NCBI GenBank assembly: GCA_963819125.1 | Contig: CAWFUQ010000009.1 | Location: forward strand, 13,813-77,812 | Reading direction: 5' to 3' | DNA: 64,000 bases | DNA from: Terriglobia bacterium | GTDB taxonomy: Bacteria > Acidobacteriota > Terriglobia > Bryobacterales > Bryobacteraceae | Shown here: positions 38,220 to 52,542 of the stretch, piece after piece | Numbering within the stretch: the first letter of the stretch is position 1 | How the letters are laid out: each line of letters opens with the position of its first letter | Made by a program: the position numbers and the translations under genes | The notes under the pieces: model-generated | What the model was told of the DNA's origin: nothing | Databases searched by the model: none | Seen by the model: the letters and a program-made list of their open reading frames with translations, nothing else

Positions 38220-38230
38220 AGTCGCTTCAC

Positions 38231-38849: not shown

Positions 38850-39472
38850 TTACAGCCCGGACACGGGTGCTGAGACGATTTGCCACCCGCCTGCCTCCAG
38901 CCACATCCGGGTCACCTTGGCGGCATCGACGAAGCTGGCGCGGGCGAGGACGGGTCGCGGATGAAGAATCCGGTGATCTCTTCCGACAGAGCGTCTCGCG
39001 CCACGCCCTCGATCAGGACGGCATGGTTGGCTTCGATCATGCTGGGCTCGTCGGCGCGATCCCATAGCTCGGCTGCATTTACGAACGCGATGACATTCGA
39101 GCCCGCCTCGATATTCTGCGCCAAGTCCTCGAGCGAGTGTCCGCGCTCGGAATCGGCGGGCGCGTCGGAATTCGCAAGCAGACGGAGCAAATGATCTTGA
39201 GACACTCCCCCAGAAAGCGCGACGTCGGATGCGTCGTCGCACCAGCCGAGGTGCATGCCGCGAGTCACCAGATCGCCCTCCGAAAGTGCCCTGCCTAGGT
39301 AGAGCGCGCCCGCCGCCAGACTGCTGGTGTTCTCGAACCCGAAAGGATTGCTGAGCTGCGGCGTCGATTCCGCGGTCATATCCACGCCTGCCACGGTCAT
39401 GTCGCGGCCCCGGATCACCTCGCGGCGGACCGAAACATCGACTTGAAGCGGAACCTCTCGAAAATTAGACAT
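38850..39472 (-). CDS. papain-fold peptidase-like protein, Cys->Ser variant (paralog of 50680..51390), C-terminal frame break
   Basis: GFENTSSLAAGAL aligns with GFQGTCGLCSCEN, SLEDLAQNIEAGSNVIAFVNAAELW with TLEDLAGNIEQGRGVIIGVNAGVLW, and NHAVLIEGVARD with NHAITVTGVARD. The tail ASFVDAAKVTRMWLEAGGWQIV (like AKFVDAAMMREGWEEVGGSQVV) is in another frame, with the shift near 38935..38950. Confidence 0.6.
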
Positions 39473-39490
39473 AGAACATAACCTCCAATC

Positions 39491-40225
39491 CTAAGCAGGG
39501 CTCCAATTCAAGTTCCGAATCACCTTGCCACATGCGGTTCGCAACGCGCTCAAACTTCCCCGCGCCATGTAGCGGCGATCGGAATCCAGGACGATCTTGC
39601 GGAACGCCTCTTCTTCCGCCGCGGTCAACGGCTGCGCGGAGTCGGAAGCAGCCCTCGTGAGCGCCTCCGCAATCGCCGCGGGACTGCCCATCTGGTCGCG
39701 ATGATTCACGAACAGGTACGCACGCAGCTTGGGAATCGCCCGGCAATGGAGCACCGCGCAATGGGACCCACTGATCCCCAGCGTCTTCCCGATCTCATCC
39801 CATGACGCTTCGGCATGATTCAATTTCTCGAGTACGCAGTGCGATTCCTGGCCAGTCAATTCACCTGCTTCCGCAGCCCTGGAAAGCATGGACCGCAGGA
39901 AATCGGCTGACATCGCCGGCTCCGGCGCCACCTTCTTCGCAACCAGTCCGGGATTGCTTTCTGCAACTGTTTCAAGAGGTGTATCCCGGACCCGCTGCCG
40001 CACCAGCCGTTGAATCGCCCGGTTGATTTCGTTCCGCGCGATCTTCTGTACCCATTGGCTGAAGGGGCAATCGCCGCGAAATGTCGCCGAGCCTCGCCAG
40101 GCGCGAATGGCGACCTGTTGAACGACATCGCTCGCGAGCGCCGGATTGGACAATGCGTACCGGCACGCTCGTTCTACATGGACGGACGCTTCGCGCCATT
40201 GAGTCTCGAACTCTTCGCTGGTCAT
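39491..40225 (-). CDS. ECF-type sigma-70 family factor with ~70-aa C-terminal extension
   Basis: MTSEEFETQW...; region 2 is ASDVVQQVAIRAWRGSATFRGDCPFSQWVQKIARNEINRAIQR; region 4 is LTGQESHCVLEKLNHAEASWDEIGKTLGISGSHCAVLHCRAIPKLRAYL. The ATG overlaps a TGA in the neighbouring frame (GGATGACC). Confidence 0.75.
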   Translation of the reverse strand: MTSEEFETQWREASVHVERACRYALSNPALASDVVQQVAIRAWRGSATFRGDCPFSQWVQKIARNEINRAIQRLVRQRVRDTPLETVAESNPGLVAKKVAPEPAMSADFLRSMLSRAAEAGELTGQESHCVLEKLNHAEASWDEIGKTLGISGSHCAVLHCRAIPKLRAYLFVNHRDQMGSPAAIAEALTRAASDSAQPLTAAEEEAFRKIVLDSDRRYMARGSLSALRTACGKVIRNLNWSPA

Positions 40226-43200
40226 CCGCTTCCAAATACGTCGAGCGCCTTGCTCTCGGCGAGACCGCTTCGTTGGGATAACAACACGAGAAGCCGGTCG
40301 CGCGCGGCGATACTGTCGGCACCCGGCATCTTTGTGTTCGTCAACAAGCAATAGAGCCACGCCTGGCGGACGGCGCCGTCGGCGGGCTGTCCCGAGATCG
40401 CTCCCCACGGATTGCATGGCCGCGACCGTGGCGCGTTCCACAGATAAAATAGCTTTCTCGGGCGGATCCTGCATGACGAGCGGAAGCACTTGCCGCGTCA
40501 AGCCGCCGATGTGAGCAGCGACGAAAGAGAACATGAGGCAACGCATCGGGCACGCTTCGCAGCCAGGCTCCTCTCGTGGAGGCCGGTTGGTGACGGTCGC
40601 CACGAGCTGTTGATGAGCCTGCTCGAACGCATGACGCTGTTCGTCGTTCAACGCAGAGGCGCGCAGCCACCCAATCAGAAACGGACCGAGTGCGCGCGAC
40701 GCGGCTTCGCGCGTCAATCGATTCTCGGGAAGCAGTCCGCTTTCCGGAGTCAGCGCGCGGCGGCTCTCCAGAAAAACACCGAGCCAGTCGTGGACCGCCG
40801 AGGCCGCGGCGCAATACTCGATTCCAAATCCGCCATCGAGACGCAGACCGGACAATGCGCGGAGATCGGCACGCCAGGTATTCCACGCCGCCCACGCGCT
40901 GGCCGCGTCACCGAGCAAGAGATGTTCGCAGAACGCCGTCAGGCTCCTCTTCACGCGATCCCATCCGCGCGCCTCCTCGAGCGGCGTCAGAAAATCGCAA
41001 GGCGAGGCGCACCACTGGCAGCCTGCGTGTTGGCGGAGGTGGGCGCGCTTCTCCGGATCTGCCAGACGCGCCAGGTCGCGAACCTGATGATCGGTCAGCG
41101 CCTCTACGCGCGCTCCTTTCACCGGCAGGATCCGCACTAGAATCGCCGAACCGATTCGCTCATCATGAACGGCGGCCTGCCCGGTCGGCAGCGCGTTGAG
41201 ATGTCGGATCTGCGGCTCGCTCAGATTCATGCAGCTTCCGATCGCGTGCCGGTCCTCGGAGTCCAGGAGCTGATGCGCGATCTTGAGGTAGGAGTTCTTG
41301 AGAATCTCCGGCGCCAGCTTGCTGGGAATCTGGTCAGCGATGACGAAGCCTTCTCCATAAGCGCGCATTTCGGCGAGCATGTTGGTGAACATCGAAACGG
41401 CTTTCCCGCGCGGGTCGCCTGCCTCCGCGGAGACGCCGCCGCGTGGGGCTTCCAGCAGCCGGTGCGCCTCTTCCACTAGCGTCAAATGCTGCAGCCGCTC
41501 GCGCTGGTTTTCCGGCAGGTCGCGCTGTCGCGCTTCCGCGTATTGGCACAACAGGACAAACAACAGCGCCATGACGAAAGATTTTTCGTCGTCATCGCCT
41601 AGGTCCTGCAATTCCACTACCGCCGGCCGGGAAAAAATGGATTCGAGCGGCGTGGATCTCCTGGTGTTGAGCGCCAGGCCTTTGTTGCCGACCATCAGGC
41701 TGCGCAGCCGCGAGCGAAGTGCCGCGCCCATGTTCTGATGAATCTCCTGCCCATATTTTTTCCTGGCCAGCACGACCTCGATTTTGTCATGCAGATCCTG
41801 AAGATTAGGCGTTAGCGCGCTCAAATCGTCGAGCGAGGGACGATCTCCGAGAGAGGCGTTGCCGGAGTCGTACAGGCTCCAGCCACGCTCCGTGTAGATC
41901 TCGAGCAGCGCTTCCTCCAGCACGTACTGCATTCCGGCGAACATCGAAAAGGAGGCGTTAAAGACCGCCTTCAACATATCGATATGCCGTCCGAGAGGAA
42001 CGCCCTGCACCGGCGCCAGCGGATTCAGCCGGAGCGGGAGGGTAACCCCGCCACCAAAACCGAAGACGCCGAGCTTGCCTTTCAATTCTGGGGTCTGCAG
42101 CAGCCGGCGATATTCGCTCTTCGCCGGCTCGAGCACCAGGAACGGCACGCGCAGTTTCTCGAAAGACTCGAGGAGAATCTGCATGCACGTATTCGTCTTT
42201 CCGCTGCCGGGCGTTCCGGTGACGAACACGTGCCGGTTCAGCGATCCCGCGGGAATGGCAACCGGGCTCAGATCGCGGCTGAGTTCGTCCTGGAGGACGC
42301 CGATGGTGATCGAATCGGACTTGGGCGCCGGGACCGAGAGAGCGAACTCGCTGAAATCGCGCATCGGCAGACCGGGGATCTCGCGCTGCGGGGGCGTCAC
42401 CAGTACCGACAGCTCTTCGCAATCGAGACAGGTCGCCAGGGCGTCGAAGGCCGGTCCGAGCGGATGCCCCTGGTCGCCGGAGGCAGGCCGCATTTCCAGA
42501 ATGCGTCCGTATTCAATGCCGTTGCGCACGGACTCATCAGGGGGAGATAGGATACGCAGCGGATCGAGCGCGGAAGCATCGCCGCCGCCGAGACCGCGCA
42601 ATCCGCCGGCGACCGCGTGAACCGCAGCGTCGCTTTCGGCCACCAGGTACACTGCTGTTTGCCAGCATCCGCTGCCGCGGGCCCGGATCAGACGGTCCGT
42701 GTACTGTTGGATCATCTGCTCGCAGGCTTCGGCATGGGCGTCCAGCAAATCGACCCCGCCCGATTCGGACCAGTTCGTCCCGTCCTGGATCTGGCTTGCT
42801 CTGCCGGTGCTGTCCCGGCGTCCCGCCAAGTTCGCGGCAGTCATGGTTGTATTGAGCGCCGCGACGAATGGCATGGCGTTCATCCCTAGAGGAAGGGCGA
42901 CCAGGCTGGAGAAAGCCGCCACACTCGAAAGACAGAGCGGGAGATCCTGCAGCCACCGGTTCTTCTTCTGTGTTTCCTCAGTCTCGGTACGCGACTCGGA
43001 TTTCGATCCACCCTGCACCCGCTGCACCGTGCGCCGCACGTAGGCGTGCATCTCGCTCTTGAGGCGCCGGCAGATGTCGATGGCATCATCGATCGCCTCC
43101 GCTTCCAGGGGCCGGGCGACCAACATCAGCGCATAAGGCTGATCGCCGACGGCGGCCACCAGCCGGTCCAGACTCTGGAAGCTCGATGAGGGATCCTTCG

Positions 43201-43753
43201 ATCGCCGGGAGGGTATCCCGGTCATCACGCGCGTCGCTGGGGCATCGCGCAGGAAGGAAGCCAAATCCGGGAGGTCCTGCTGAGTGAGGCCGGCGAGCGG
43301 CCCGAATTCGAGCCCGTTCAAGTGTGAGCGGTAGGCGCTCTCCTGCATGGAGAGATAATCTTCCGTCGATCGCGCTCCGGCGCCGATGATGCGCCGGCCG
43401 CCCACGTACAGACGATGGCGGCCGCGTGAGCCATGAAGAATCACCACGAGTGAGTGCCCGGGATCGGAGCATGCCGTCAACACTTGCGGCATGGCGCGAG
43501 CGAAAATTCCGGGCTCCTGCGGGCGGCCCAGGCCCGTCACTTCGCGCAGCAGCGGACGCGCAATGTCGCCAGTTCTCGGCTGGATGTTCCAGTCAGCAGC
43601 CCGAAAGTGCGAGAGATACCTTCGTTCCAGAACCGACACCAATGCCTGCGGCAGACCTTCGGTGAATTGCACCTCGGCGGCCAGCGAGGGTCGCGCGGGC
43701 TCAGCGGCCGCGGATACCGCGACAGGCTGCGCCGGACGGGGATCAATCGGCAT
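40222..43753 (-). CDS. large HerA/FtsK-superfamily (DUF87-like) ATPase with ~480-aa unknown N-domain and Cys-cluster C-domain; apparent frame break near 40385..40395
   Basis: Walker A VFVTGTPGSGKTN, Walker B HLTLVEEAHRLLE, and GEGFVIADQIPSKL. The C-terminus has CQWCASPC and CEACPMRC. The last ~55 codons (GQPADGAVRQAWLYCLLTNTKMPGADSIAARDRLLVLLSQRSGLAESKALDVFGSG*) are in a different frame with better third-position GC. Confidence 0.8.
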
Positions 43754-44900
43754 CGACGTTTCCTCGTTCCCATGGCGGAATCAGCGGGGCTGGAGATGGC
43801 GAAGATTCCAGGTCAGGTTGCGCGAAGGTGGACGCCTCAATCGCGGGCATGGAATCGAGGAGCATTCCCGAGGGATGCTCGCCCAACTCGCCCCACCAAG
43901 TCGCTCCCGCGGCGACATCTTCGGCCGCTGCGCCGCTCCGCCATACCGGGGCCAGCGCGGCTGCGATTCTTTCGGCGAACGGCCAAACGGAACCCAGCCC
44001 GCCCACTAACAACAGTTCCGGCGAGTCACTTCCGATGGCTCGCAGCGCTCCTCGGATCGCGTCTGGAAGCTGCTGCGAGAACGAAACGAATTCGGGCCAA
44101 GCCGTGCATTCCCGATAAGAGAGTGACAGCGGAGCGTATAAGCGCTCCTCGAAGATCTCGCGCCACTCAACCGGTTGCTCAGCGCTCGATTGAGAAAGGC
44201 GCGCGGCGTAGCGGGCGGCCGCCTCGCGAAGGGGTCGTTCGAAGCCGGTTCCGGGTTCTTCGTTCAGCCGCTTGCGCACCAGGTCGAGCAGCCGCCGGTT
44301 CCAAGCGGACTCGCCGGCTTCCTCGATCGCCTGGGGGGCGCTGACAGCCGCGATCGACGGGAAGCCACGGCTGTCCCATTCAAGCCAGAAGGCAGTCACG
44401 AGAGTGGACGTCTCTCCCACAGCGATTGCGACGACGGCTTTCTGTTTGGCTGGTTCGAGCGACCGCGATGCGAACCAGCGGCACAGCAGCGCATGCGTGG
44501 CCGGAAGAACCGTGATCTCATCGAACCCCGCGGCGCGGGCCAAAGCGTCGACCGTATGCGCCTCCGTTCGAAAATTCGATCCCTGCAAAGCGATCGCGAG
44601 ACGGTATCCGTTTTTTCGCACGGGCGCGAGCCGGCCGAGATAGGCGGATAGACGGCGATACGCTCCCTCCCAAAAAAGACGGGCACCGGGCTCCTCGACC
44701 CATGCGCCGTTTCCGGAGGCGGTCCACAGAGGGGCATGTCCAGCCGCGCGGCTGCCCCAATCTCCCGTGCCCGCCACGGCGTTCGGAATTTGTGCGCGGA
44801 CGCCGTCGCCGACCAAAGCAACGTGCGCACCTTCATCACCCTCCTCGCGTAAAGCGATCACTGTGACGGAAGGCTGGTAATCCACGCCGAAGGTATTCAT
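43743..44900 (-). CDS. degenerate actin/Hsp70-fold (ASKHA-like) protein
   Basis: MNTFGVDYQPSVTVIAL, VVAIAVGETSTLVTAF and ELLLVGGLGSVWPFAERI sit where the phosphate-1, phosphate-2 and adenosine motifs would be. The stop overlaps the ATPase start by 11 nt. The fold assignment is tentative. Confidence 0.5.
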   Translation of the reverse strand: MNTFGVDYQPSVTVIALREEGDEGAHVALVGDGVRAQIPNAVAGTGDWGSRAAGHAPLWTASGNGAWVEEPGARLFWEGAYRRLSAYLGRLAPVRKNGYRLAIALQGSNFRTEAHTVDALARAAGFDEITVLPATHALLCRWFASRSLEPAKQKAVVAIAVGETSTLVTAFWLEWDSRGFPSIAAVSAPQAIEEAGESAWNRRLLDLVRKRLNEEPGTGFERPLREAAARYAARLSQSSAEQPVEWREIFEERLYAPLSLSYRECTAWPEFVSFSQQLPDAIRGALRAIGSDSPELLLVGGLGSVWPFAERIAAALAPVWRSGAAAEDVAAGATWWGELGEHPSGMLLDSMPAIEASTFAQPDLESSPSPAPLIPPWERGNVDAD

Positions 44901-44966
44901 CCGGCGAACCCTTGTTTCCATCCCCGCGGCGTCTCCGTGACGAAAGGGGCGGCCAGTTTGGCTGCT

Positions 44967-46569
44967 TCATCTGCCAGTTCTCGAAAGGCGGCTCTGCGCG
45001 TCCCGAAGCCGCCGAAGAGCGGTTTCATCGGGCATCGGACAATCCGCGGGCTGCAGCGAATAAAGCCGATCGAAACCCTCCAGGAGGCGCGGGCCGCGGG
45101 ACTGCATCGCCGTGATCAGGTTTTCGATCAGCCGCTGGATCTCCGCGCGAACGGTGGCCAGCCATTGCGGCGGACGGCCCAGCTTCTCGCCGACGAATGC
45201 AGGAATGGCCGCCACCACCGCATTGACGCCGCCTGCTTCGATTTTTTCAAGAAACCGGATCGGAAGAGCCGGCGGACAAGTCTGGCTCAATAAATACTCG
45301 GTCCACTCCGGATTCAAAGGCGCTTCGCCGCTTCGTCGCAACGTTTCACCGGCATGTTGAATCATCCGCCGCGCGGCGGCATCGGCGACGGCGGCGATTT
45401 CGCGATTCAATTCCTCCGCGTGGATTCCGCCTGAAGCCACTGCCACATTCGTCAGTCGTGATGAAATGCTTGCGCCGCAGGCTTTCGCGCCAACGGAGAA
45501 ATCCTCCAGGAATTTTTCGATAGCCTTGGACAAGGATTCCGCGAGTTGGCGCTTTCCCTCCGCACGGCGATCCACTTCCGCTGCCTCAGCTTCTTGCCGC
45601 TCGAAATCAGCCACCGCTTGGGCAGATGGGTTCTTCGAGCCGCGACGCACAATCCCGCAGCGCTGCCGCAGCGCGCCATAGCCGCGTCCGCATCACGCGT
45701 GGATGAAATCGCAGAATCCACTTGCACCATGAATCCCAGAAGATCCGCGCCGCCAAAGGTGTTCTGTCCGGATTTGCACATCGCACGCCCGCCACCGGCA
45801 GGATGGTGGGAGGCGCTTGTTCCGGAAAGCCCATATCCGGAGACGAAATGGCACACTTTATTGATCAACTGCGGAGCGCTTTTAGACAGGAACTGTTCCC
45901 ACTCCGCGGGACTGTCGGTACGAAGAAATCCATTCAGGATGAAGATCACCGAAGCCGGTCCGGATTCCTGGACGTGGCTCGCGAGGAATTCCATCTCCAC
46001 CTGCGAAAGGAGCTGGCGCGACGTCAGCACCCACGCCAACACATCCGAGTACGCGGCCGACCGGCGCGTGCGTTCGTCCATCTCGGGAGTATCGTTGTAT
46101 CCGGGCGAATCCACCCAGCACGCGTTGGCTGGAATCACGGAATCCTTGAGAACGATTTCGGCACGTTCGATAGCCGCCACCTCGCTGCGCCGCTCTCCAC
46201 GTTCCGAAAGCAATGTGATTTCGGCGCGAATGGCTTCAGTGGAGCAGGGGATCGCGCGCCTTGCTCCCGCTTCGATGACAACGGCGCCATCCTCATCGCC
46301 ACTCAGCAAGCAACAGATCGCGCCGGTATCGGGCACATCGTCGACCGGTAGGATGTCGCGCCCGACCACCGCGTTCATCATGGTCGATTTGCCGGCCTTG
46401 AACACGCCCCCGAAATTCACGGTCACCTGTTCTTCCCCGATCACACGTGTGAGCTTCCAAGCCGCGTCGCGATATCCGGAGCGTCGGCCTTCGTCATCGC
46501 AGCGAGTTCCTCGATCCGGGCATTCAGATCCTGCACAGCTTCTTTCGAAACACCAGCACAAAAAATCAT
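44967..46569 (-). pseudogene. dynamin-like GTPase 2, reading frame broken at least three times
   Basis: ATG at 46569 gives MIFCAGVSKEAVQDLNARIEELAAMTKADAPDIA. The GTPase domain lies in a second frame (GGVFKAGKSTMMNAVVG, WVDSPGYND). The helical C-terminal 227 aa lie in a third frame (ORF 44967..45650). Confidence 0.6.
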
Positions 46570-46577
46570 GCGGCTCT

Positions 46578-48591
46578 TTACGCTGTCTGCTGCAAACTCA
46601 CATTGAGCACCGTAAGCTCCTGCCGCAGCGCCCCGACCCGGCGCAACGATTGATCGAGCGAGGAAAGCATCCGCGCTTTTTCCGACTGGCTTCGCCGGTT
46701 GTTTTCGGCGATGGTGCGCAGATTTCTCTCTTTCCCTCGATGATGGTCAGCACCGCGGCGCTGATGTCCGTAGCCAGCTTGTCAATGTACGCCCCCGTTT
46801 CCGATTCGATCGGTGGAGCATAATTTTTCACCCACTTCATCGAGCCGAGGCAGGACGTCGTCGAGCGCTTTCTTCTTGACTCTCTGGGTGAGCCCGATGG
46901 TCCCGCCGACTACGTTCGCCACCATCCCTGCGCCGATGCCCCACAGCACCAGGTAGGGCAGTCCGAACCATCCAAGAGCGGCTACCGCTGCCAGGCGCGC
47001 GGCGATATTGAAGCTCAATCCGCGAAATCCGGTGGATAGCCCGGTCAGTGTCGTGAAATCCTGAAAGAGAACCAGTCCAACCACGGTCGACCACGCCCGT
47101 TCCTGATCGCTGATCATCTTATTGTCCGCTCCCGGTTCGAGTTTCCAGCCGGTCACCTGGAATTGGACATCGTCGAACTCGCGCTCGATCGCCGCCACCT
47201 CGTCCTGAACTTCCCGCAGCAGCGCTTCGAGGCCGGGCTCCAGAATTTTCTGCGCCGTGTCACCTTCCGCTGGCGGTTCCGTTGCACCAGGAGAGAACCT
47301 GCTCGCTGATCTGGCGTTCGCAGAACGAGTATGCCTCGGCCAACATTTCCTTCTGATGCGCGAGCGCCAGAGCCGTATCGGACGGCAGCTTTTCTGCCAT
47401 GAGCCGATCGGGAAGGGTTTGTTTCAACTGCACGGTTACCATTCCGAACCCGGCACGGATGTCGCGCAGGCTCTGGTCGCGGTACCGCCGGAAGATCTCC
47501 GGTAGCCGTTCATAACGCTTGCGAATGTCAGCCAGTTGCGGTTGAATCGCTTCGAACGCGACCCGCAATTGTTCGGTGTCGGCCTGCAGCGCGGCTTGCC
47601 GCTGCCGGACCTGCTGCTCGATGGTGACCGCCGAGTTGTCCGCCGCTTTCAGAAAACGATCGATATGAACGCGCTGCCGGTCGTGGACCAGGAACTCGCC
47701 GAGTTTCGCTTCAAAGCCGGCCAGACCCGATTGCTCCATCTGCCTCGCGTCAGCCAGCAACTTGCCCTGCTCCGCTTGCCTGGCGTCTACGAAGTAAATG
47801 TCGCGGCTCTTGAAATCCTGCGGAGCGTCGGCGCTGCCGCCAAAGTCCGTCACCAGACGACGCCACACAAAACCCTTGAAGCGATCATCCACCGCACGGC
47901 CATCCTGCAAATTCACCACCGTGAAAACGCGTGTTCCCGAGTTGGTGAGCGTCTCGTGCACGAACTTCCGCTCGTCCTCGCCGGCCAGGACGTCGCTGCG
48001 GTACACGACGATCGCCACGTCGCACTTGCCGATCGCCTGCCGCGTCACTTCGGTGCGCTCGGGGATATCGTCGGTGCCGGGCGAGTCGATGATCGTGACG
48101 CCGGATTGGCATAGCTCAGCCGGAAAGCCCATCTCGAATTCACGAATCTTGCGGAAGAAATCGCGCGTTTCGCTCTCGTTCTCGCGTACCGTGCCCTCGC
48201 GCCGGTACTTTTCTAGCGACCAGTCTTCTGAGTTTCCATCAAAACCCCATGCGCGAACAGTGGGCCGCTCGGCGTAATGAATGGAGGTCAGCGTAGCGGT
48301 GCACGGCAGCTCGCCAACCGGCATGGGGCCCTGGCCGAACCCGAGCTCGGGAACCGGCCTTGTGGAGCCACCAAGAAGCGCATTCAGAAGGGTCGATTTA
48401 CCGTTCTTAAAGCGGCCCGTGACAATGATCTGAAAAGTATCCGACGCCAGCCGTTCGGCGGTTTGCTCCAGCCGGGCGGCGGTCTCTTTCATATCGAGAC
48501 TCGACGCCAGCGTTGTCAGATCGAGAATTGTTTTGCGAGCCTGGGTTTTCGATCGTCCAAATTCCTGTTCCAGTAATTGCTTCAGAACCAT
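46578..48591 (-). pseudogene. dynamin-like GTPase 1 (BDLP-like, ~670 aa) split over four frames
   Basis: G1 is GRFKNGKSTLLNALLG and G3 is IIDSPGTDD. ORF 47260..48591 continues sensibly into 46782..47198 (hydrophobic paddle LAAVAALGWFGLPYLVLWGIGAGMVANVVGG). It then continues into 46598..46840 and into a fourth frame ending ...LRQELTVLNVSLQQTA* at 46578. Confidence 0.7.
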
Positions 48592-48610
48592 CGATGCGCT
48601 CCATCCTACC

Positions 48611-50116
48611 CTATAGCCTTTGCCTGTACAACAACAACTGAGCTCGATCCAACTCCGCGGCCGAATCTCCGTCGGGAACCTTCATCGCCTGTGCGTAGGC
48701 GGCATCCAATGTGGTCTCGATCGCGCTTAATTCCGCAGCCAGGCGATCGCGGTATTCGGCGATCGCGCCCTGGATCGCGGTCCTCGATTCGGGGATCGCT
48801 TGGCGCGTCATCGCATGAATGGCTTGCCGCGCCGCCTGAGCGGACTGCTCGAAGGATTGGCCGCGCCGCGCGATACCCAGCGCCGCAAGCAAGCTGGAAA
48901 CGGCGACCGTCGCGACCAGACCGGTGCTGAGCGCCGCGGCTAAACCGAACAGCGCCACGACACCGGTCACTCTATCCTGCCACTCCGGTCCTGAGGTGGT
49001 GTGCTCCAGCGCGGGAGCGTGCGGATCCACCGGAATTCTCAGCGACACCGCAGCCGGCCGCGCGGGATTTCCCGCCATCGCGTGAACGAAGTCCCAATCG
49101 ATTCGATCCAGCAGCGTCTGCGTTTCGAGGATGATCCCGGCGACCCGCTGATCGAGTTCCACCTCCAGGCGCAGCCGCCATGAGGTCATCCCTTCTTCGA
49201 TGCACTTTTCCAGCAGCGACTGAAACTTGCGGCTGTAGACATGAGTGTCCTTCCACAGTCCGGACTGTCCCTCCCGCACCTTTTCGATCCGCCGTAGCAG
49301 ATCCTGTTCGAGCGCCAGCAGCGAGGCGGCTACCTGGGCCGAAAGACTCGCGGCGTCGCCATCCATGCGGCGCGCCACGCGGCTTCGAACTTCAGCGACT
49401 TCAACTCGCGCGCGGCGCAGGCGGCCGGCATCGCCGTCGCGGGCCGGATGTGTTGCCGGCGTGAATCCTTCCGCGAAGTCCAGCAGCCGGGACACTTGCG
49501 CGCGATCCAGCAATTCGACATCGGGATCGGCCAGAGGCCGCCGCAGCAGCGCCGCCAGTTCCTCCGCGTCACGGCGGCAGCGGTCGCGCAGAAATTCGTT
49601 GGGTTCGGAAGCGCTCCACAAGTAGCACTGATACGCGAGGAGATCCTGCCGCTGCCACTCGCGTTTTGGATCGGGAACCACCAGCCGCCAGATGGCGCGT
49701 TCCATCTGGTCCAGATCCTCCGGCGATTTGAGGCGTTCCGCGTGCGTGAATACGATCGCGAAGGATTCGAGAGGCCGCGTCAGGAACTGCTCCGCGATAG
49801 CCGTCGCCGCGGCTGCATCGAGTGCGCGGCCGCACTCGAAAACGGCGACCAGCTTCGTCGCGAACCACGCGCTAAACGGCGGCGCGGCGATCTCCCCGAT
49901 GGGGGCTTCCGTGATTTCCGCGGGATCGGCCGTTTGCTGCATCCAGTTCCGCAGCGGTGTAGCGTCCACGCCAGCGCCGTGCGCGAGCAGGATCTCCCGC
50001 CGCGTCCTGCGAGACAGAATCGCCGCCGCAAGATCCTCGACGGATTTCCAGCCGCGGCGCGCCGCCAGGTCGCGTATGCCCTGGACAACCTCTTCGTTAA
50101 TGGATGCTGCCGTCAT
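48611..50116 (-). CDS. dynamin-like paralog with degenerate P-loop and hydrophobic paddle
   Basis: 501 aa. LLAHGAGVDATPLRNWM sits where G1 would be, with no GK[ST]. There is a helical stalk, a paddle-like VTGVVALFGLAAALSTGLVATVAVSSLLAALGIA and a C-terminal helix. The layout matches the two downstream DLPs. Confidence 0.55.
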   Translation of the reverse strand: MTAASINEEVVQGIRDLAARRGWKSVEDLAAAILSRRTRREILLAHGAGVDATPLRNWMQQTADPAEITEAPIGEIAAPPFSAWFATKLVAVFECGRALDAAAATAIAEQFLTRPLESFAIVFTHAERLKSPEDLDQMERAIWRLVVPDPKREWQRQDLLAYQCYLWSASEPNEFLRDRCRRDAEELAALLRRPLADPDVELLDRAQVSRLLDFAEGFTPATHPARDGDAGRLRRARVEVAEVRSRVARRMDGDAASLSAQVAASLLALEQDLLRRIEKVREGQSGLWKDTHVYSRKFQSLLEKCIEEGMTSWRLRLEVELDQRVAGIILETQTLLDRIDWDFVHAMAGNPARPAAVSLRIPVDPHAPALEHTTSGPEWQDRVTGVVALFGLAAALSTGLVATVAVSSLLAALGIARRGQSFEQSAQAARQAIHAMTRQAIPESRTAIQGAIAEYRDRLAAELSAIETTLDAAYAQAMKVPDGDSAAELDRAQLLLYRQRL

Positions 50117-50122
50117 GGCGCA

Positions 50123-50647
50123 CTACTTCTCCAGCCATTCGAAGAAATCGGGCACGATGGCGCGATACTGCGGCTGAAGCGGCTCCGGAAGAAGTTCCGT
50201 CAACATCGACGCAAGGCTCCGGCGCTCGATCGCATCCCCTGGTTCGCCTGCGAAAAAGCGCGGCGTCAGAGTCTCCAGTTTCTCTTCCATAGTCTTCAAC
50301 GATTGACGCAGCTCGTCTCTGGTGATCGCGACGCGCGGCAACGTGACCGCCTCGAATTTCGCGCCCGATGGAAAGGTAATCGACTTCGTCAATGCGTAGA
50401 CCATCAGCCGCCCGCCGTAGGCTGCCACTACCCACCAGCGGTCTGGGGCGCTTTGCTGCATGGGCTCCTGCGGCCGCCGCAGCGCCGCGGCTGCGAAGTA
50501 GGCGTAGGAAGGCTCGCCCCATTTCATCGTCGGTAGCGGCAGTGAGATGGCATGCTCGGTGGGAATTTCCGAGCGGATCAGGAAGTGGGTCTTCTGAAGC
50601 TCGCGCAGTTCCGCGTAACTCATGAGATGTTTTTGGATGGTTGTCAT
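50123..50647 (-). CDS. small hypothetical protein (174 aa)
   Basis: I prefer the start at MTTIQKHL because GGAGAG lies 6 nt upstream. The ORF track opens at 50752, which overlaps the peptidase gene. There is a 6-nt gap to the next gene and no known domain. Confidence 0.5.
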   Translation of the reverse strand: MTTIQKHLMSYAELRELQKTHFLIRSEIPTEHAISLPLPTMKWGEPSYAYFAAAALRRPQEPMQQSAPDRWWVVAAYGGRLMVYALTKSITFPSGAKFEAVTLPRVAITRDELRQSLKTMEEKLETLTPRFFAGEPGDAIERRSLASMLTELLPEPLQPQYRAIVPDFFEWLEK

Positions 50648-50679
50648 ATCTGCTCTCTCCGCTTGGTCCATATGGTTTG

Positions 50680-51390
50680 TTAATTCGGCAAAGCCTTGGA
50701 AAAGGGGCGGCTTTCCGCGGTCACAACCTGCGATCCGCCGACTTCTTCCCAACCCTCACGCATCATGGCAGCGTCCACGAATTTTGCGGCTTCGCCTGTT
50801 CCGCTGTCATTCACGAAAAAGCCCTGAATATCGCCGGTCGCGGGATCGCGGGCTACTCCTGTCACCGTGATTGCATGATTCGATACGTTGCCGCTGTCGG
50901 CGTTCGCGTCATTCCAAAGCACGCCGGCATTGACCCCGATGATCACTCCCCGGCCCTGCTCGATGTTGCCGGCCAGATCCTCCAGCGTTCCGCCATGAGA
51001 CGCGCTGGAGGGGACACCGAGACGCGTGAGGATGTCGGCACGCCCTTCCGCCGTGGTGCCTCCGTTCTTGGCCGGGTCCGGATCGTCGCATGAGCACAGA
51101 CCGCGCGTACCTGCGAAAAATACCAGGTCCGATTCCGTTACTTCCAGTCCGAACGACCGCAGAACATTTTCGCATGAGCACAGTCCACAGGTTCCCTGAA
51201 ATCCGCTGAAACTGTCGCCTTGCCGGTGCGTAAATCGTTTGTCCCCTTCCGGGTCGCCGATCACCACGGTCTCACGGCCGTCCGGAAGCACGTCCACGTG
51301 GGACGGCACCTCACCAGTGCCGAAATCGCTGAAATTGGGCACATCAGCAGGTACGTCCCGGATGAAATCGTCTTTGAATCTGTCTTCCAT
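50680..51390 (-). CDS. papain-fold cysteine peptidase-like protein
   Basis: A Cys motif (GFQGTCGLCSCENVLRSFG), a His motif (NHAITVTGVARD) and a downstream D/N (GFFVNDSG) suggest a C-H-D/N triad. No signal peptide. I cannot assign the family by eye. Confidence 0.65.
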   Translation of the reverse strand: MEDRFKDDFIRDVPADVPNFSDFGTGEVPSHVDVLPDGRETVVIGDPEGDKRFTHRQGDSFSGFQGTCGLCSCENVLRSFGLEVTESDLVFFAGTRGLCSCDDPDPAKNGGTTAEGRADILTRLGVPSSASHGGTLEDLAGNIEQGRGVIIGVNAGVLWNDANADSGNVSNHAITVTGVARDPATGDIQGFFVNDSGTGEAAKFVDAAMMREGWEEVGGSQVVTAESRPFSKALPN

Positions 51391-51452
51391 CGCGTCCTCT
51401 CTTTACGTCTCCTACCGCCTTCAATCCTTCAGACCCCCGATCAGGGCCGCCC

Positions 51453-52328
51453 TTACAGCTTGTTGGAACATTTCTCCGTCAATGCTCCTAAGAGATAGGC
51501 ACTTGTCCAGATCGCCGCTGACATCAGGGGGAAGAAGAGGATGACGCCGATTCCGCTCAACGCGGCGATCGCGGTTATCGAAATGACGGCGGCCATCATG
51601 CACCACAGCAACACCAGAAACTTTGCGAATCCAAAGAAATGACGGAAAAGCAGGGCGACACACGCCGGAAGGTTAAAGAAGCTGCCGGCCTTTCCCGTTT
51701 GCGAGAACCGGACGACGGCAGCGCTGAATACCGGCAACGCCAGCGAAATGTACCCGAGAACAATTACCGGTCGCCACCACGATAGTACGAGCTGCGCGTA
51801 CAGCATTTCCCATAAGGGAGGACTCGCCTGGCCCTGCAGATGGTGCCACAGCCATAGTGAGATTTGGAGAGCGAGGGTCCACAGTCCGAACGAAGCAACC
51901 CACCAGTACAGCATCACAGGCAGCATTATATAGAGCCAGAAGAACGCGACGACGATCGCGCCATCCGTCAGAAAGCGGCCAAGATCGTTTGGCTGCGGCA
52001 AAGATTCCGGCATGCGACGGCTCTTTCTCCGGACCGCGTCGATCGCCCATCCGGCGCTGAGAAACATTCCCAGTGGAATCGGCAAAGGAAGCCACCACAG
52101 GAACGTCATCCACAGACTCCGGATCCATTCGCGTCGATAGAACGGCCAACTGACGGAATTTCCAGCGTACGGCGTCCGCCAGATCATGCTGAGCGGCACC
52201 CAGTCCTGAAGCGCGTCGGTTTTCGCCAGGTCGGATAAGCCCACCCTGCCCTCGAACAGGAACGCCCTTATTTGCGTGTCCGAGTACGGGCCGTACGATT
52301 GGCCTGTCCTATGGATGAAGTAATTCAC
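51453..52328 (-). CDS. GYF_2 (DUF4339)-like domain fused to a polytopic membrane domain
   Basis: A GTG start gives VNYFIHRTGQSYGPYSDTQIRAFLFEGRVGLSDLAKTDALQDWVPLSMIW, followed by about 6 TM helices. The ORF track opens further upstream at 52544. Confidence 0.65.
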   Translation of the reverse strand: MNYFIHRTGQSYGPYSDTQIRAFLFEGRVGLSDLAKTDALQDWVPLSMIWRTPYAGNSVSWPFYRREWIRSLWMTFLWWLPLPIPLGMFLSAGWAIDAVRRKSRRMPESLPQPNDLGRFLTDGAIVVAFFWLYIMLPVMLYWWVASFGLWTLALQISLWLWHHLQGQASPPLWEMLYAQLVLSWWRPVIVLGYISLALPVFSAAVVRFSQTGKAGSFFNLPACVALLFRHFFGFAKFLVLLWCMMAAVISITAIAALSGIGVILFFPLMSAAIWTSAYLLGALTEKCSNKL

Positions 52329-52542
52329 CGTTTCGACCCTTCCCGATCGTCGATGAGAATGACCCTGGCAAGTCCGCAAGCTTACAACATTCTGCGAATT
52401 TGCCGCGAACTTTCTTCGCCGCTGCAACCTGCTCGGGCAGAACCTGTGCATGCCCTCGTCCCGAGGCGATTTGGAAGGTCGATGTATAATCACCGCTGAC
52501 CTGGACACCCCAAAAGGAAATCGTGGCTCGGATGTCGAACAC

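What the first reader, a model, noticed from the sequence alone, without database searches (positions are those of the whole stretch)
38850..52328. Ten-gene co-directional module (peptidase, three dynamin-like proteins, ASKHA-like protein, HerA-like ATPase, sigma factor, pseudo-peptidase): candidate undescribed system
All ten genes are on the minus strand, separated by tiny gaps or overlaps. Read downstream, the junctions are a 62-nt gap, an 8-32-nt gap, then 6, 19, 8 and 45-66-nt gaps, then an 11-nt overlap, a 4-nt ATGA overlap and an 18-nt gap. The order is: GYF-membrane protein; papain-like Cys peptidase; 174-aa ORF; P-loop-less dynamin-like protein; two dynamin-like GTPases; degenerate actin/Hsp70-fold protein; ~1175-aa HerA/FtsK-type ATPase; ECF-type sigma; Ser-variant copy of the peptidase. 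Tandem dynamin-like proteins, HerA-type ATPases and peptidase effectors are each recurrent parts of bacterial conflict systems. I know of no described system that combines them, and none that ends in a dedicated, translationally coupled sigma factor. The module sits in an island flanked by recombinase relics, which fits accessory or defence cargo. A working hypothesis is that a membrane or invader sensor (DLPs plus ATPase) drives a transcriptional output (sigma) and proteolytic effectors. Caveat: several members look frameshifted in this copy.
Basis: partly seen in the sequence, partly recalled or inferred. Interest (0 to 1): 0.9.

Follow-up and report, generated by a model that had tools for sequence, protein, structure and literature searches.

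The report
Conserved dynamin–Hsp70–ATPase–peptidase operon
The block is a real operon, kept in the same gene order in at least nine bacterial phyla, that joins three dynamin-like membrane proteins, an Hsp70-like protein, a large pumping ATPase, a cysteine peptidase with a small partner and often its own sigma factor; I found no description of it and its function is untested.

Summary
The genes, their order and all nine junctions are as described, and every domain call was confirmed by profile or fold searches.

The block is not a chance juxtaposition. A seven-gene core is kept in the same order wherever flank is available. It runs C39-like peptidase, 175-aa protein, P-loop-less DLP, DLP1, DLP2, Hsp70-NBD-like protein, ~1150-aa HerA/VirB4-type ATPase. 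It occurs in Actinomycetota, Abditibacteriota, Armatimonadota, Acidobacteriota, Cyanobacteriota, Chloroflexota, Planctomycetota and Pseudomonadota, with a reduced form in Nitrospirota.

- The sigma factor is optional and usually sits at the front, next to the peptidase.
- The GYF membrane gene is not conserved.
- "Recombinase relics" were not found.
- The frameshifts are most likely assembly indels. Short-read contigs at least 99% identical differ only by 1-nt indels, all three at frame breaks.
- The system is rare and patchy: 0 of 40 relatives and 2 of 301 Streptomyces species.
- The Hsp70-like/ATPase pair is an older dyad. The peptidase/175-aa pair also travels with such ATPases without DLPs.

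No literature description of the combination was found. Its function, defence-type or otherwise, is inferred, not shown.

The parts
51453..52544 (-). GYF_2 + DUF4013 membrane protein. It is adjacent and co-directional, but it is not a conserved member of the system.
   Evidence: Pfam GYF_2 2.3e-6 and DUF4013 3.4e-9. phmmer found no relative in any of about 90 fetched loci. No conserved flanking cluster was found.
50680..51390 (-). pepA: cytoplasmic papain-fold cysteine peptidase of the C39-like family. The Gln, Cys, His and Asp positions are conserved across the family.
   Evidence: The window copy scores 21.8 bits against PF13529, below the 24-bit cut-off. Across alignment A8, 17 of 19 orthologs match at E <= 0.01, and the best, L004, scores 30.2 bits. 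The Q59, C70, H173 and D196 columns are invariant. No hydrophobic segment was found.
50123..50647 (-). B178: a ~175-aa soluble protein of no known family, always directly after pepA. It carries PDRWW and C-terminal PDFFxWLE motifs. I propose it as a partner or inhibitor of the peptidase; that role is inferred.
   Evidence: Alignment A3. No hit in Pfam, NCBIfam, PADLOC or PDB sequences. It has 336 cluster representatives among 1.84 billion, all listed ones 73-227 aa. It pairs with pepA even in a DLP-less locus, L097.
48611..50116 (-). C500: dynamin-like protein without a P-loop. It has a degenerate G-domain-like N half, a BDLP-like helical stalk and one hydrophobic hairpin.
   Evidence: Profile A5 hits Nostoc BDLP 2j68 at E 4.9e-6, positions 201-512 against 347-676. 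PADLOC LeoBC 3.5e-5. Hydrophobic stretch at about residues 375-420. Alignment.
46578..48591 (-). DLP1: ~670-aa bacterial dynamin-like GTPase with a hydrophobic paddle. The window copy is broken at 47272, at about 46815-46825 and at 46730.
   Evidence: Dynamin_N 5.8e-21 and Dynamin-like_hel_bact 1e-9. The L002 ortholog matches BDLP 2j68 over its full length at E 4.5e-26. G1 and G3 motifs are present. Breaks mapped; run X1 removes two of them.
44967..46569 (-). DLP2: ~570-aa second dynamin-like GTPase. The window copy is broken at about 45512-45623, and probably also in the T-run just after the ATG at 46569.
   Evidence: Dynamin_N 1.7e-17. The L002 ortholog matches BDLP and mitofusin G domains at 2.7e-9 and 1.5e-5. 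Breaks mapped.
43743..44921 (-). F380: Hsp70 nucleotide-binding-domain-like protein with no substrate-binding domain. Its phosphate-binding motifs are degenerate. A disordered linker leads to a conserved C-terminal PPWxR tail.
   Evidence: AF2 model pLDDT 84. Foldseek top hits are Hsp70/DnaK NBDs, E 2e-14, TM about 0.62. hhalign against canonical Hsp70-like partners of paralogous ATPases gives 98.5% probability, E 4e-15. Alignment A2.
40222..43753 (-). ATPase of ~1176 aa. Its parts are an alpha/beta N-domain of no named family, a hydrophobic helical hairpin, a HerA/VirB4-type P-loop ATPase and a C-terminal domain with 8 invariant Cys. A 1-nt break at 40403 fuses it in frame to the sigma gene in the assembly.
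   Evidence: The PDB profile search hits HerA at 1.1e-10 and a VirB4-like chain at 0.008. PADLOC mad8 6e-17 and HerA hits. Invariant columns listed. N-domain model and searches. Hydropathy. Break mapped.
39491..40225 (-). ECF-like sigma factor with sigma2 and sigma4 regions and a conserved ~65-aa C-terminal extension. Its start overlaps the ATPase stop (ATGA).
   Evidence: Sigma70_r2 7.8e-8. TIGR02937 scores 43.0 bits against a cut-off of 42.9. Alignments A6 and A9. Overlap shown.
38850..39472 (-). pepI: paralog of pepA with the catalytic Cys replaced, by Ser here and by Ala in L002. The window copy is broken at about 38882-38945.
   Evidence: Alignment A4. tblastn against the L002 210-aa protein. 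Present only in the window, L002 and L013, where it is truncated.
35178..38780 (-). Downstream block of zinc-ribbon (DZR), Sel1 and RDD membrane proteins, shared with locus L002. It is probably an accessory module of this variant. It carries a 1-nt break in a T8 run at about 38450.
   Evidence: tblastn of the four L002 proteins. Pfam DZR, RDD and Sel1. Relatives lie directly upstream of the Hsp70-like gene in the paralogous loci L028-L031.

Best explanation
This is one copy of a horizontally mobile, membrane-associated multi-NTPase system with a seven-gene core: pepA, B178, C500, DLP1, DLP2, F380, ATPase.

Shown by tools:
- The order is conserved across at least nine phyla.
- DLP1, C500 and the ATPase each carry a hydrophobic hairpin. 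The other proteins are soluble.
- The Hsp70-like/ATPase pair is an ancient dyad.
- The peptidase/B178 pair recurs with such ATPases without DLPs.
- The sigma gene always abuts a peptidase gene or the ATPase gene.

Inferred:
1. The DLP trio forms a heteromeric membrane-remodelling assembly on the cytoplasmic face.
2. It is coupled to a hexameric HerA/VirB4-type motor through the nucleotide-degenerate Hsp70-like adaptor.
3. On a trigger at the membrane (invader DNA entry or membrane damage), the machine releases or activates the papain-like peptidase that B178 otherwise keeps in check.
4. Where a sigma gene is present, the peptidase also acts on the sigma factor. The likely site is the [LIC]GG that joins sigma4 to its C-terminal extension. 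That would give inducible, self-amplifying expression.

The most likely biological role is a conflict or defence-type response in the manner of DLP-based Eleos and DynA. About 0.4 is my odds for the defence role. I put about 0.95 on it being a genuine conserved system.
For: Synteny:
- Searches show the same order in about 19 complete loci.
- In the FastTree of 88 ATPases, the DLP-linked clade is one branch with 100% support and mixed phyla inside.

Patchiness and mobility:
- 0 of 24 same-genus and 0 of 16 same-order genomes carry the ATPase.
- The B178 profile was found in 2 of 301 Streptomyces species.
- B178 has 336 representatives among 1.84 billion clusters.
- Neighbours include an integrase (L002), nSTAND1-CHAT (L091), caspase plus STAND (L003), and PDDEXK_3 plus an SMC-like ATPase (L092).

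DLP identity:
-, with weak LeoA/LeoBC hits.

Membrane hairpins:
-.

Hsp70-like fold and homology to the dyad partner:
-.
- DLP2 and F380 share one 986-codon frame in Actinoplanes.

Peptidase:
- Catalytic residues are invariant.
- Its domain also occurs inside RTX-type proteins.

Peptidase/B178 pair with a DUF87 ATPase but no DLPs:
-.

Sigma:
- It is adjacent to pepA or pepI in 13 of 14 aligned loci.
- [LIC]GG sits 6-7 residues after sigma4 in 11 of 14.
- Complex prediction on the L004 pepA and sigma pair gave 'weak support'. Median ipSAE was 0.60 and the best control 0.20. That mark was reached by 58 of 80 solved complexes and 2 of 110 mismatches. At 0.60 or under it was reached by only 7 of those 80 and by both mismatches. 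The runs agree in at least 65% of contacts, and partner pLDDT is at least 76.
Against: - There are no functional data of any kind.
- No PADLOC system model fits. Only the ATPase core (mad8, HerA) and weak LeoA/LeoBC hits were seen.
- No ortholog occurs on 72,556 plasmids or in IMG/VR contigs.
- Some loci sit among housekeeping genes, for example L004 between radical-SAM and acyl-CoA metabolism genes.
- I did not test enrichment next to known defence genes against a background.
- The peptidase is as conserved as the other parts, unlike the swappable effectors typical of many defence systems.
- A dedicated sigma factor inside a defence operon is unusual.
- The sigma-peptidase complex score is in the range that is more often wrong than right without a strong prior.
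- The GG site is missing in the window, L002 and L020.
Confidence: 0.4

Rival explanations
1. It is a specialised export or vesiculation apparatus. The HerA/VirB4-type ATPase, whose N-domain may resemble EccE, and the DLPs drive secretion or membrane-vesicle release of the papain-like peptidase. B178 would be its cytoplasmic immunity protein or chaperone, and the role would be interbacterial antagonism or surface remodelling.
For: - The ATPase N-domain's best non-helical structural matches are chains of ESX-5 and ESX-3 type VII complexes and TrwK/VirB4 (Z 7.0, 6.3 and 6.3).
- Bell et al. 2024 describe EccE3-like domains fused to VirB4-like ATPases (PMC11090510).
- The DLP-less locus L097 places pepA, B178 and the ATPase beside YukD and an FtsK_SpoIIIE multi-domain ATPase, both type-VII-like.
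- The peptidase domain occurs in RTX-type secreted proteins.
- The gene order of peptidase followed by a small protein is typical of toxin-immunity or protease-inhibitor pairs. This point rests on general knowledge.
Only the titles of PMC4159319 and PMC10240201 appeared.
Against: - There is no polytopic channel protein, no WXG100-like substrate and no signal peptide on pepA.
- The structural Z-scores are within the tool's stated noise range.
- The peptidase is not polymorphic between loci (45-66% identity, like the rest).
- Distant ATPase relatives on plasmids sit in conjugation-like clusters rather than toxin clusters.
Confidence: 0.2
2. It is an envelope-stress or membrane-repair module. The ECF-like sigma would induce a DLP-based membrane-sealing machine after membrane damage, analogous to iniBAC or DynA. 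The peptidase would process the sigma factor or damaged proteins. No invader would be involved.
For: - An ECF-type sigma lies in the operon. ECF sigmas typically govern envelope-stress regulons; that is established knowledge.
- DLP1 is similar to IniA (E 1.1e-4) and BDLP.
- Three components carry hydrophobic hairpins.
- Some loci lie in housekeeping neighbourhoods.
Against: - The distribution is extremely patchy within genera and phyla are mixed in the ATPase tree. Both fit accessory cargo better than a general stress function.
- The sigma gene is missing from about a third of loci.
- No anti-sigma or sensor of the usual kinds is present.
Confidence: 0.2
3. It is a decayed, non-functional relic in this genome. 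The copy would be pseudogenised by at least seven frameshifts, so whatever the family does, this locus does nothing.
For: tblastn against intact L002 proteins shows frame breaks in DLP1 (three), DLP2, the ATPase, pepI and the DZR gene. rpoB and rpoC of the same assembly are intact.
Against: - Contigs of run X1, all at least 99% identical, differ from the window over the covered parts by exactly three 1-nt indels and at most one substitution.
- All three indels fall at frame breaks (40403, 47272, 46730). Applying them restores the frames.
- Several breaks lie in homopolymer runs: G5 at 40403, T8 at about 38450 and a T-run at 46560-46566.
- Indels without substitutions are the signature of long-read assembly error, not of gene decay.
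- Caveats: X1 depth is only about 2.5-3x, it may come from the same sample, and four breaks are not covered.
Confidence: 0.1

Closest known systems
Eleos (formerly 'Dynamins'; LeoA + LeoBC) anti-phage system and ETEC LeoABC
   Same: Both use several co-operonic bacterial dynamin-like proteins, including one that carries only the helical and paddle part. The PADLOC LeoA and LeoBC models hit DLP1, DLP2 and C500 weakly (1.5e-10, 2.3e-8, 3.5e-5).
   Different: Eleos has two genes, or three in ETEC. This system adds four invariant partners (Hsp70-like, ~1150-aa HerA/VirB4-type ATPase, C39-like peptidase, B178) and often a sigma factor. The HMM scores are far from ortholog level. No phage test exists for it.
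Paired bacterial DLPs: Nostoc BDLP, Campylobacter DLP1/2, B. subtilis DynA, mycobacterial IniA/IniC
   Same: DLP1 aligns with BDLP over its full length (E 4.5e-26) and weakly with Cj-DLP and IniA. The DLP genes are paired in one operon and carry a hydrophobic paddle.
   Different: Those are one- or two-gene units without the ATPase, Hsp70-like or peptidase partners. Jilly et al. 2018 (PMC5827413) noted a cyanobacterial 'chaperone clade' of DLPs with a DnaK-domain gene downstream. That may be this system seen in part, but they did not describe the rest.
'EccE3-HerA' ATPases of extended type III-A CoCoNuT loci (Bell et al. 2024, PMC11090510)
   Same: That paper reports an uncharacterised N-domain, modelled there as EccE3-like, fused to a VirB4/HerA-like ATPase, in loci that also encode Hsp70-like proteins. 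My N-domain model's best non-helical matches are ESX-5 and ESX-3 chains and TrwK/VirB4.
   Different: This locus has no McrBC/CoCoNuT genes. I did not compare the proteins directly, so orthology is not shown. The DLP-linked clade has an extra 8-Cys C-terminal domain. My Z-scores (6.3-7.0) are within the noise range.
Hsp70-like + DUF87/HerA-type ATPase dyad (found here; I know of no name for it)
   Same: A canonical Pfam HSP70 protein lies directly upstream of the paralogous ATPases in 7 of 10 loci scanned, and also in L029. These come from Acidobacteriota, Verrucomicrobiota, Lentisphaerota and Chloroflexota. hhalign links F380 to these proteins.
   Different: The dyad loci lack the DLPs, pepA and B178. 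Their Hsp70-like proteins keep canonical ATP-binding motifs and often carry zinc-ribbon or FHA domains.
MADS (mad7/mad8 module)
   Same: The PADLOC mad8 model hits the ATPase core at 6.1e-17.
   Different: The match covers only the P-loop domain. No methyltransferase, nuclease or kinase genes of MADS are present. According to PMC13662399, MAD7-MAD8 is an ATPase-nuclease module.
B. subtilis spoIIGA-sigE (protease gene next to the pro-sigma it cleaves) and ECF sigmas with regulatory C-terminal extensions (ECF41/42 type)
   Same: A peptidase gene abuts the sigma gene, and the sigma has a conserved C-terminal extension. This is an analogy from established knowledge.
   Different: The protease class differs (papain fold versus aspartic). 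The extension here is C-terminal, not an N-terminal pro-sequence. Cleavage is not shown.

Membership tests
Bacterial dynamin-like proteins (DLP1, DLP2) | Dynamin-type GTPase domain with G1 (GxxxxGKS/T) and G3 (DxxG) motifs | tested here: met
   Dynamin_N 5.8e-21 and 1.7e-17. G1 is present in all eight proteins checked. DSPG was found in six of them; my simple DSPG pattern did not find it in the two L092 proteins.
Bacterial dynamin-like proteins (DLP1, C500) | BDLP-like helical neck and trunk with a hydrophobic membrane paddle | tested here: met
   DLP1 matches 2j68 over 31-618 at E 4.5e-26. The C500 profile matches 2j68 over 347-676 at E 4.9e-6. Hydrophobic hairpins are present.
Bacterial dynamin-like proteins (C500) | Functional P-loop | tested here: not met
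   No GxxxxGK motif and no Dynamin_N hit. C500 is a P-loop-less relative, as LeoC is to LeoB.
Bacterial dynamin-like proteins | GTP-dependent membrane tethering, fusion or fission | not testable with these tools
   Needs biochemistry.
Eleos (LeoA/LeoBC) defence system | LeoA and LeoBC orthologs as the complete system | tested here: not met
   PADLOC scores are only 18-39 bits. The conserved unit has seven or eight genes.
Eleos (LeoA/LeoBC) defence system | Protection against phage | not testable with these tools
HerA/FtsK/VirB4 superfamily ATPase | P-loop domain with Walker A and Walker B and profile similarity to HerA or VirB4 | tested here: met
   G513-G516-G518-K519-T520 and E761-E762-A763-H764 are invariant. 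PDB profile hits: HerA 1.1e-10 and 5.7e-8, a VirB4-like chain 0.008. NCBIfam CedD 2.2e-15.
'EccE3-like + VirB4-like' ATPases (Bell et al. 2024) | N-terminal domain with the fold of the EccE cytoplasmic domain | tested here: inconclusive
   VIA-align gives 7b9f_E Z 7.0 (127 residues aligned, rmsd 3.7) and 6lar_G Z 6.3. Foldseek found nothing below 1e-3. The tool states that Z under 8 is common by chance. The subunit identity of those chains was not given by the tool.
Hsp70 / ASKHA superfamily (F380) | Two-lobed actin-like ATPase fold of the Hsp70 NBD | tested here: met
   Model pLDDT 84. The top 50 Foldseek hits are all Hsp70 NBDs, E down to 2e-14. hhalign against Pfam-HSP70-positive partners gives 98.5%.
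Hsp70 chaperones (F380) | Canonical phosphate-1 and phosphate-2 motifs and a substrate-binding domain | tested here: not met
   F380 has GIDxQ in place of GIDxG and A-V-G-D/E-x-x-T in place of DxGGGT. There is no SBD, only a disordered tail ending in PPWxR. No Pfam HSP70 hit.
Peptidase C39-like (PF13529) (pepA) | Profile match and the papain-type Gln/Cys/His/Asp set | tested here: met
   17 of 19 orthologs match PF13529 at E <= 0.01 and the best scores 30.2 bits against a cut-off of 24. The window copy scores 21.8 bits, below the cut-off. Q59, C70, H173 and D196 are invariant.
Peptidase C39-like (pepI) | Catalytic cysteine | tested here: not met
   Cys is replaced by Ser in the window and by Ala in L002. 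In L002 the His is also replaced by Cys.
Peptidase C39 | Cleavage after a double-glycine motif | not testable with these tools
   I can only note that [LIC]GG follows sigma4 in 11 of 14 sigma factors.
ECF sigma factors | Sigma2 and sigma4 regions only, and a match to the ECF superfamily model | tested here: met
   TIGR02937 scores 43.0 bits against a cut-off of 42.9, which is marginal. Sigma70_r2 7.8e-8.
ECF sigma factors | Co-encoded anti-sigma factor and an autoregulated ECF-type promoter | tested here: inconclusive
   No known anti-sigma domain was found in the operon. Inspection of upstream regions gave no shared motif. The sigma-70 consensus scan was at chance level.
Type VII secretion (ESX/Ess) | EccC/EssC multi-FtsK ATPase, a WXG100 substrate and polytopic channel subunits | tested here: not met
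   None was found in the window operon. YukD and an FtsK_SpoIIIE ATPase appear only beside the DLP-less relative L097.
MADS | mad1-mad8 set including a methyltransferase and nucleases | tested here: not met
   Only the mad8 model hits, on the ATPase core.

The most novel reading that the evidence does not exclude
The operon encodes a previously unrecognised kind of bacterial membrane machine. A dynamin-like heterotrimer would be mechanically coupled, through an Hsp70-like adaptor, to a HerA/VirB4-type hexameric pump with a metal-binding (8-Cys) sensor domain. Its output would be proteolytic: a papain-like peptidase released from its dedicated inhibitor B178. That peptidase would also activate a pro-sigma factor by cutting a Gly-Gly linker. 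If so, this would be a new signalling logic joining membrane remodelling, ATP-driven translocation and regulated proteolysis of a sigma factor, and a new class of defence or conflict system.
Probability: 0.2. Interest if true: 0.9.

Novelty: new variant of a known kind. Interest (0 to 1): 0.72.

Why it matters
Bacterial dynamin-like proteins are widespread, but their partners and triggers are largely unknown. This operon gives them a fixed set of six partners, with a clear genetic handle and intact copies in culturable strains (Streptomyces sp. BK340 and NRRL B-2790, Microbispora sp. NBC_01189, Nocardia sp. alder85J, Abditibacteriota IAD-21, Leptolyngbya JSC-1).

It also brings out two gene pairs for which I know no name:
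- an Hsp70-like protein with a DUF87/HerA-type ATPase, and
- a C39-like peptidase with a 175-aa protein.

These pairs recur outside the operon, which points to modular machinery that nobody has tested.

If the defence or regulated-proteolysis reading is right, it adds a multi-NTPase system with a built-in sigma factor to the catalogue of conflict systems. It would also offer a testable example of peptidase control of an ECF-type sigma. If it is instead a repair or export device, it would be a new context for HerA/VirB4-type pumps at the membrane.

Tried and rejected
- **Chance juxtaposition.** Rejected by the conserved synteny.
- **Named system.** PADLOC, NCBIfam and Pfam gave no system-level or family names for pepA (beyond PF13529), B178, C500 or F380. 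Eight full-text searches found no description of the combination. The ECF reclassification paper had no supplements held.
- **DO-GTPase/GAP1 systems of Kaur et al. 2020** (which include Hsp70). Considered and rejected. Those GTPases are a different TRAFAC family, and the two GTPases here are clear Dynamin_N proteins.
- **B178.** The Atlas feature search, the PDB sequence profile and Pfam gave nothing.
- **ATPase N-domain.**
  - Foldseek against PDB found nothing below 1e-3.
  - VIA-align and the Atlas search gave only weak matches or matches to its own kind.
- **ATPase C-terminal domain.** The 8-Cys domain was not folded, so Zn versus Fe-S is unresolved.
- **Plasmid or phage carriage.** No full-length ortholog was found on plasmids or in IMG/VR, only distant relatives.
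- **Fusions.** No sigma-peptidase fusion was found in the 'longer' search, and the 470-aa pepA relative does not contain a sigma.
- **Promoters and terminators.** The consensus scan was at chance level. Inspection of upstream regions found no shared ECF-type promoter.
- **Expression.** No RNA holder was listed for the locus, so a single transcript could not be checked.
- **Coverage by X1.** Run X1 does not cover the breaks in DLP2, pepI, the DZR gene or the middle DLP1 break.
- **Recombinase relics.**
  - The PF00589 search and the Pfam scans of the flanking ORFs I chose found none in the window. Serine recombinases and transposases were not searched separately.
  - The multi-copy stretches at 55.2-57.2 kb are secreted-protein paralogs, not mobile-element genes.
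- **Island borders.** They could not be mapped. Same-genus genomes share only short stretches at 65-77% identity.
- **IQ-TREE.** The quick search did not finish, so FastTree was used.

Full report
**1. What is in the window**

Between 38.85 and 52.5 kb all long ORFs lie on the minus strand.

Profile searches confirm each assignment:
- GYF_2 + DUF4013.
- Peptidase_C39_2.
- A ~175-aa ORF with no family.
- A 501-aa helical protein with weak LeoBC similarity.
- Two Dynamin_N GTPases.
- A 392-aa protein with no family.
- A long frame with DUF87/HerA signatures, followed in the same frame by Sigma70_r2 / TIGR02937.
- A second weak C39_2 match.

**2. The frame breaks**

I laid the proteins of an intact relative on the window. 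The relative is locus L002, a Steroidobacteraceae MAG whose ATPase is 79% identical. The comparison shows breaks in:
- DLP1, at 47272, about 46820 and 46730;
- DLP2, at about 45512-45623, and probably in the T-run after its ATG;
- the ATPase, at 40403, in a G5 run;
- the second peptidase, at about 38900;
- the downstream zinc-ribbon gene, in a T8 run.

The ATPase break is what fuses ATPase and sigma into the 1420-codon frame.

One public run holds the locus. It is X1, a freshwater-sediment metagenome kept as Logan contigs at about 2.5-3x depth.
- Its 12 contigs are all at least 99% identical to the window.
- They differ by exactly three 1-nt indels, at 40403, 47272 and 46730.
- Applying the three restores a ~1176-aa ATPase ending in the ATGA overlap with sigma, and extends DLP1.

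Indels at every covered break, with almost no substitutions, are the signature of assembly error rather than gene decay. There are caveats. The depth is low, the run may come from the same sample, and four breaks are uncovered. In addition, rpoB and rpoC in the assembly are intact, so errors are not uniformly dense.

**3. Conservation**

The ATPase has more than 2100 relatives. Contexts came from the look-up of encoding contigs and from 80 genome loci, screened with phmmer.

Every ATPase ortholog of at least 44% identity with enough flank sits at the end of the same series: pepA, B178, C500, DLP1, DLP2, F380, ATPase.
- About 19 loci are complete.
- Six more are cut by contig ends but are consistent.

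They come from:
- Streptomyces, Kitasatospora, Nocardia, Microbispora, Acrocarpospora and Actinoplanes;
- Abditibacteriota and Chthonomonadaceae;
- Blastocatellia, Thermoanaerobaculia and Holophagales;
- Leptolyngbya and Rivularia;
- Anaerolineales and Planctomycetaceae;
- a Steroidobacteraceae MAG.

Variants exist:
- Rivularia has one DLP (L091).
- Nitrospira has a reduced set (L093).
- One actinomycete MAG lacks a detectable pepA and B178 (L021).
- One locus has a PQQ-repeat gene inserted (L003).

Clustering of all flanking ORFs found no further conserved neighbour. The GYF-DUF4013 gene has no relative in any locus.

The sigma gene is present in about 15 loci.
- It usually comes first and abuts pepA (actinomycetes, Abditibacteriota, Planctomycetaceae).
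- In the window, L002 and L013 it follows the ATPase and is itself followed by pepI.
- In L011 it is convergent after the ATPase.
- It is absent or truncated elsewhere.

**4. Distribution**

- None of 24 same-genus and 16 same-order genomes has the ATPase.
- The B178 profile was found in 2 of 301 Streptomyces species genomes. Only 11 candidates were scored per genome, so this may undercount.
- B178 has 336 representatives among 1.84 billion clusters, and all listed ones are 73-227 aa with no long fused form.
- No ortholog is on 72,556 plasmids or in IMG/VR.
- In a FastTree of 88 ATPases, the DLP-linked proteins form one clade with 100% support, with phyla interleaved inside it. I read that as horizontal transfer.

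The system is therefore rare, patchy, accessory cargo.

**5. The parts**

- **DLP1.** It resembles Nostoc BDLP over its whole length (E 4.5e-26) and has a ~50-residue hydrophobic paddle.
- **DLP2.** It keeps the G domain.
- **C500.** It lacks a P-loop, but its profile matches the BDLP stalk and paddle, and it has one hydrophobic hairpin.
- **F380.**
  - It folds with pLDDT 84 into an Hsp70 NBD (Foldseek E 2e-14, TM about 0.62).
  - Its phosphate motifs are degenerate and it has no substrate-binding domain.
  - It ends in a disordered linker and a conserved PPWxR tail.
- **ATPase.**
  - It has invariant Walker A and B motifs and HerA/VirB4 similarity.
  - A hydrophobic helical hairpin lies at about residues 260-312.
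  - The N-domain belongs to no named family. Its best non-helical structural matches are chains of ESX-5 and ESX-3 complexes and TrwK/VirB4, at Z 6.3-7.0, which is inside the tool's noise range.
  - The C-terminal domain has two GCxxCxxxC motifs and two YC motifs, eight invariant Cys in all.
- **pepA.** It has invariant Gln, Cys, His and Asp, and 17 of 19 orthologs match PF13529.
- **pepI.** It has lost the catalytic Cys.
- **Sigma.**
  - It is ECF-like, only marginally over the TIGR02937 cut-off.
  - It has a conserved ~65-aa C-terminal extension.
  - In 11 of 14 sequences a [LIC]GG lies 6-7 residues after sigma4. The window, L002 and L020 lack it.

**6. Deeper modules**

*The Hsp70-like/ATPase dyad.*
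- In paralogous ATPase loci, the gene directly upstream encodes a canonical Pfam HSP70 protein. This held in 7 of 10 loci scanned in one call, and in L029 (E 4e-8 to 2e-52). Some of these proteins carry zinc-ribbon or FHA domains.
- hhalign links these proteins to F380 (98.5%, E 4e-15).
- So Hsp70-like plus ATPase is an older dyad, and the DLP-linked clade is a derived branch of it.

*The zinc-ribbon proteins.*
- Zinc-ribbon (DZR) proteins like those downstream of the operon in the window and in L002 lie directly upstream of the Hsp70-like gene in the Bryobacteraceae and Acidobacteriota loci.
- The 35.2-38.8 kb block is therefore probably an associated module.

*The peptidase/B178 pair.*
- A search for longer pepA relatives found the peptidase domain inside RTX-type proteins.
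- It also found locus L097. There a pepA homolog (E 1e-74) and a B178 homolog (E 1e-50) follow a DUF87 ATPase and zinc-ribbon proteins, without DLPs. That block sits beside VWA, PP2C, YukD and FtsK_SpoIIIE genes.
- So pepA plus B178 is a second portable pair.

**7. Literature**

- I found no paper describing this combination.
- Jilly et al. 2018 noted a cyanobacterial DLP 'chaperone clade' with a DnaK-domain gene downstream.
- Bell et al. 2024 noted 'EccE3-like + VirB4-like' ATPases in extended CoCoNuT loci that also carry Hsp70-like proteins.
- The DO-GTPase systems of Kaur et al. 2020 are a different GTPase family.
- The search covers open-access papers and bioRxiv only.

**8. Mechanism**

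Shown:
- three membrane-anchored components;
- two active GTPases and one active P-loop ATPase;
- a nucleotide-degenerate Hsp70-like protein whose gene overlaps both neighbours, and which shares one 986-codon frame with DLP2 in Actinoplanes;
- an apparently active cytoplasmic peptidase with an inseparable small partner;
- a sigma gene that always abuts a peptidase or the ATPase.

Inferred:
1. A DLP heteromer at the membrane is coupled to the ATPase through F380.
2. A membrane or invader trigger frees the peptidase from B178.
3. The peptidase also controls the sigma factor.

For the last step, complex prediction on the Microbispora pepA and sigma pair gave only 'weak support'. The median score was 0.60 and the best control 0.20. 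That mark was reached by 58 of 80 solved complexes and 2 of 110 mismatched pairs, but at 0.60 or under by only 7 of the 80 and by both mismatches. The runs agree in at least 65% of contacts, and partner pLDDT is at least 76.

I rate a defence or conflict role most likely (about 0.4). The reasons are the rarity, the horizontal spread, the occasional conflict-gene neighbours and the kinship of parts with Eleos, MADS and CoCoNuT components. Export or vesiculation of the peptidase and plain envelope-stress repair are live rivals, at about 0.2 each.

**9. Verdict**

This is a real, widely conserved operon that I could not find described in the literature I could search. In kind it is a new, much enlarged variant of dynamin-like-protein systems. 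Its function remains to be tested.

Noticed in passing
L028-L031, L034, L035, L037-L039, L057, L066, L074, L085; also viral contigs L094 and L095: A two-gene dyad is widespread outside the DLP system: an Hsp70-like protein, often with zinc-ribbon or FHA domains, directly upstream of a ~1000-aa DUF87/HerA-type ATPase with the same N-domain. Two IMG/VR contigs carry it. I know of no name for it.
   Followed up: partly
L097:5060-11942: This locus has no DLPs. It has two Zn-ribbon proteins, a DUF87 ATPase, a 66-aa ORF, a pepA homolog with a 260-aa Pro-rich N-terminal extension and a B178 homolog. The block sits between Ser/Thr kinases and a WD40, VWA, PP2C, YukD and FtsK_SpoIIIE block (TerY-P-like and type-VII-like).
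   Followed up: partly
L020:7014-9971: In Actinoplanes subglobosus, DLP2 and the Hsp70-like protein lie in one 986-codon open frame. This is either a natural fusion or a lost stop codon.
   Followed up: partly
G042:C2:236593-237102 (Leptolyngbya sp. JSC-1), just upstream of L019: A second B178 copy (E 2.4e-51) lies 4 kb upstream of the operon's own B178. It may mark a duplicated pepA-B178 pair.
   Followed up: no
L015:~1190-1230 and L016 equivalent, upstream of the sigma gene: A perfect inverted repeat, GGTACAC-N-GTGTACC, lies in the Streptomyces upstream regions. It is a possible operator for a repressor. A CCGGATAT-like word also recurs upstream in L004, L015 and L016.
   Followed up: no
L014:~1900-2150 and 13371-13493: The Holophagales locus keeps only the first 41 codons of the downstream sigma gene, plus a truncated different ECF sigma2 fragment upstream of pepA. 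The near-identical L013 keeps the whole sigma. This looks like recent loss of the regulator.
   Followed up: partly
window 55137-57374: Two secreted proteins are encoded here: one of 338 aa with a signal peptide, and a 386-aa protein rich in repeats that look NHL/beta-propeller-like by eye. They belong to families with many copies (14-25 DNA matches per genome) in all five same-genus genomes searched. Neither hits Pfam or NCBIfam.
   Followed up: partly
window 26077-32543 and 58129-60399: The flanks are rich in signalling genes. They include a Ser/Thr kinase with TPR repeats and two Trans_reg_C + TPR (BTAD-like) regulators.
   Followed up: no
window 38450 (T8), 40403 (G5), 46560-46566 (T-run): The assembly has 1-nt indels in homopolymer runs. 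Genome completeness of 85% with only 15 contigs fits a long-read assembly with residual indel errors. Other genes of this genome may be falsely split.
   Followed up: partly
L090 (Planktothrix agardhii plasmid p1, 81612-102176): A distant DUF87 relative with the same N-domain sits in a run of six small hypothetical genes plus a second ATP-binding protein, on a plasmid typed MPF_T. It looks like a conjugation-type cluster.
   Followed up: no
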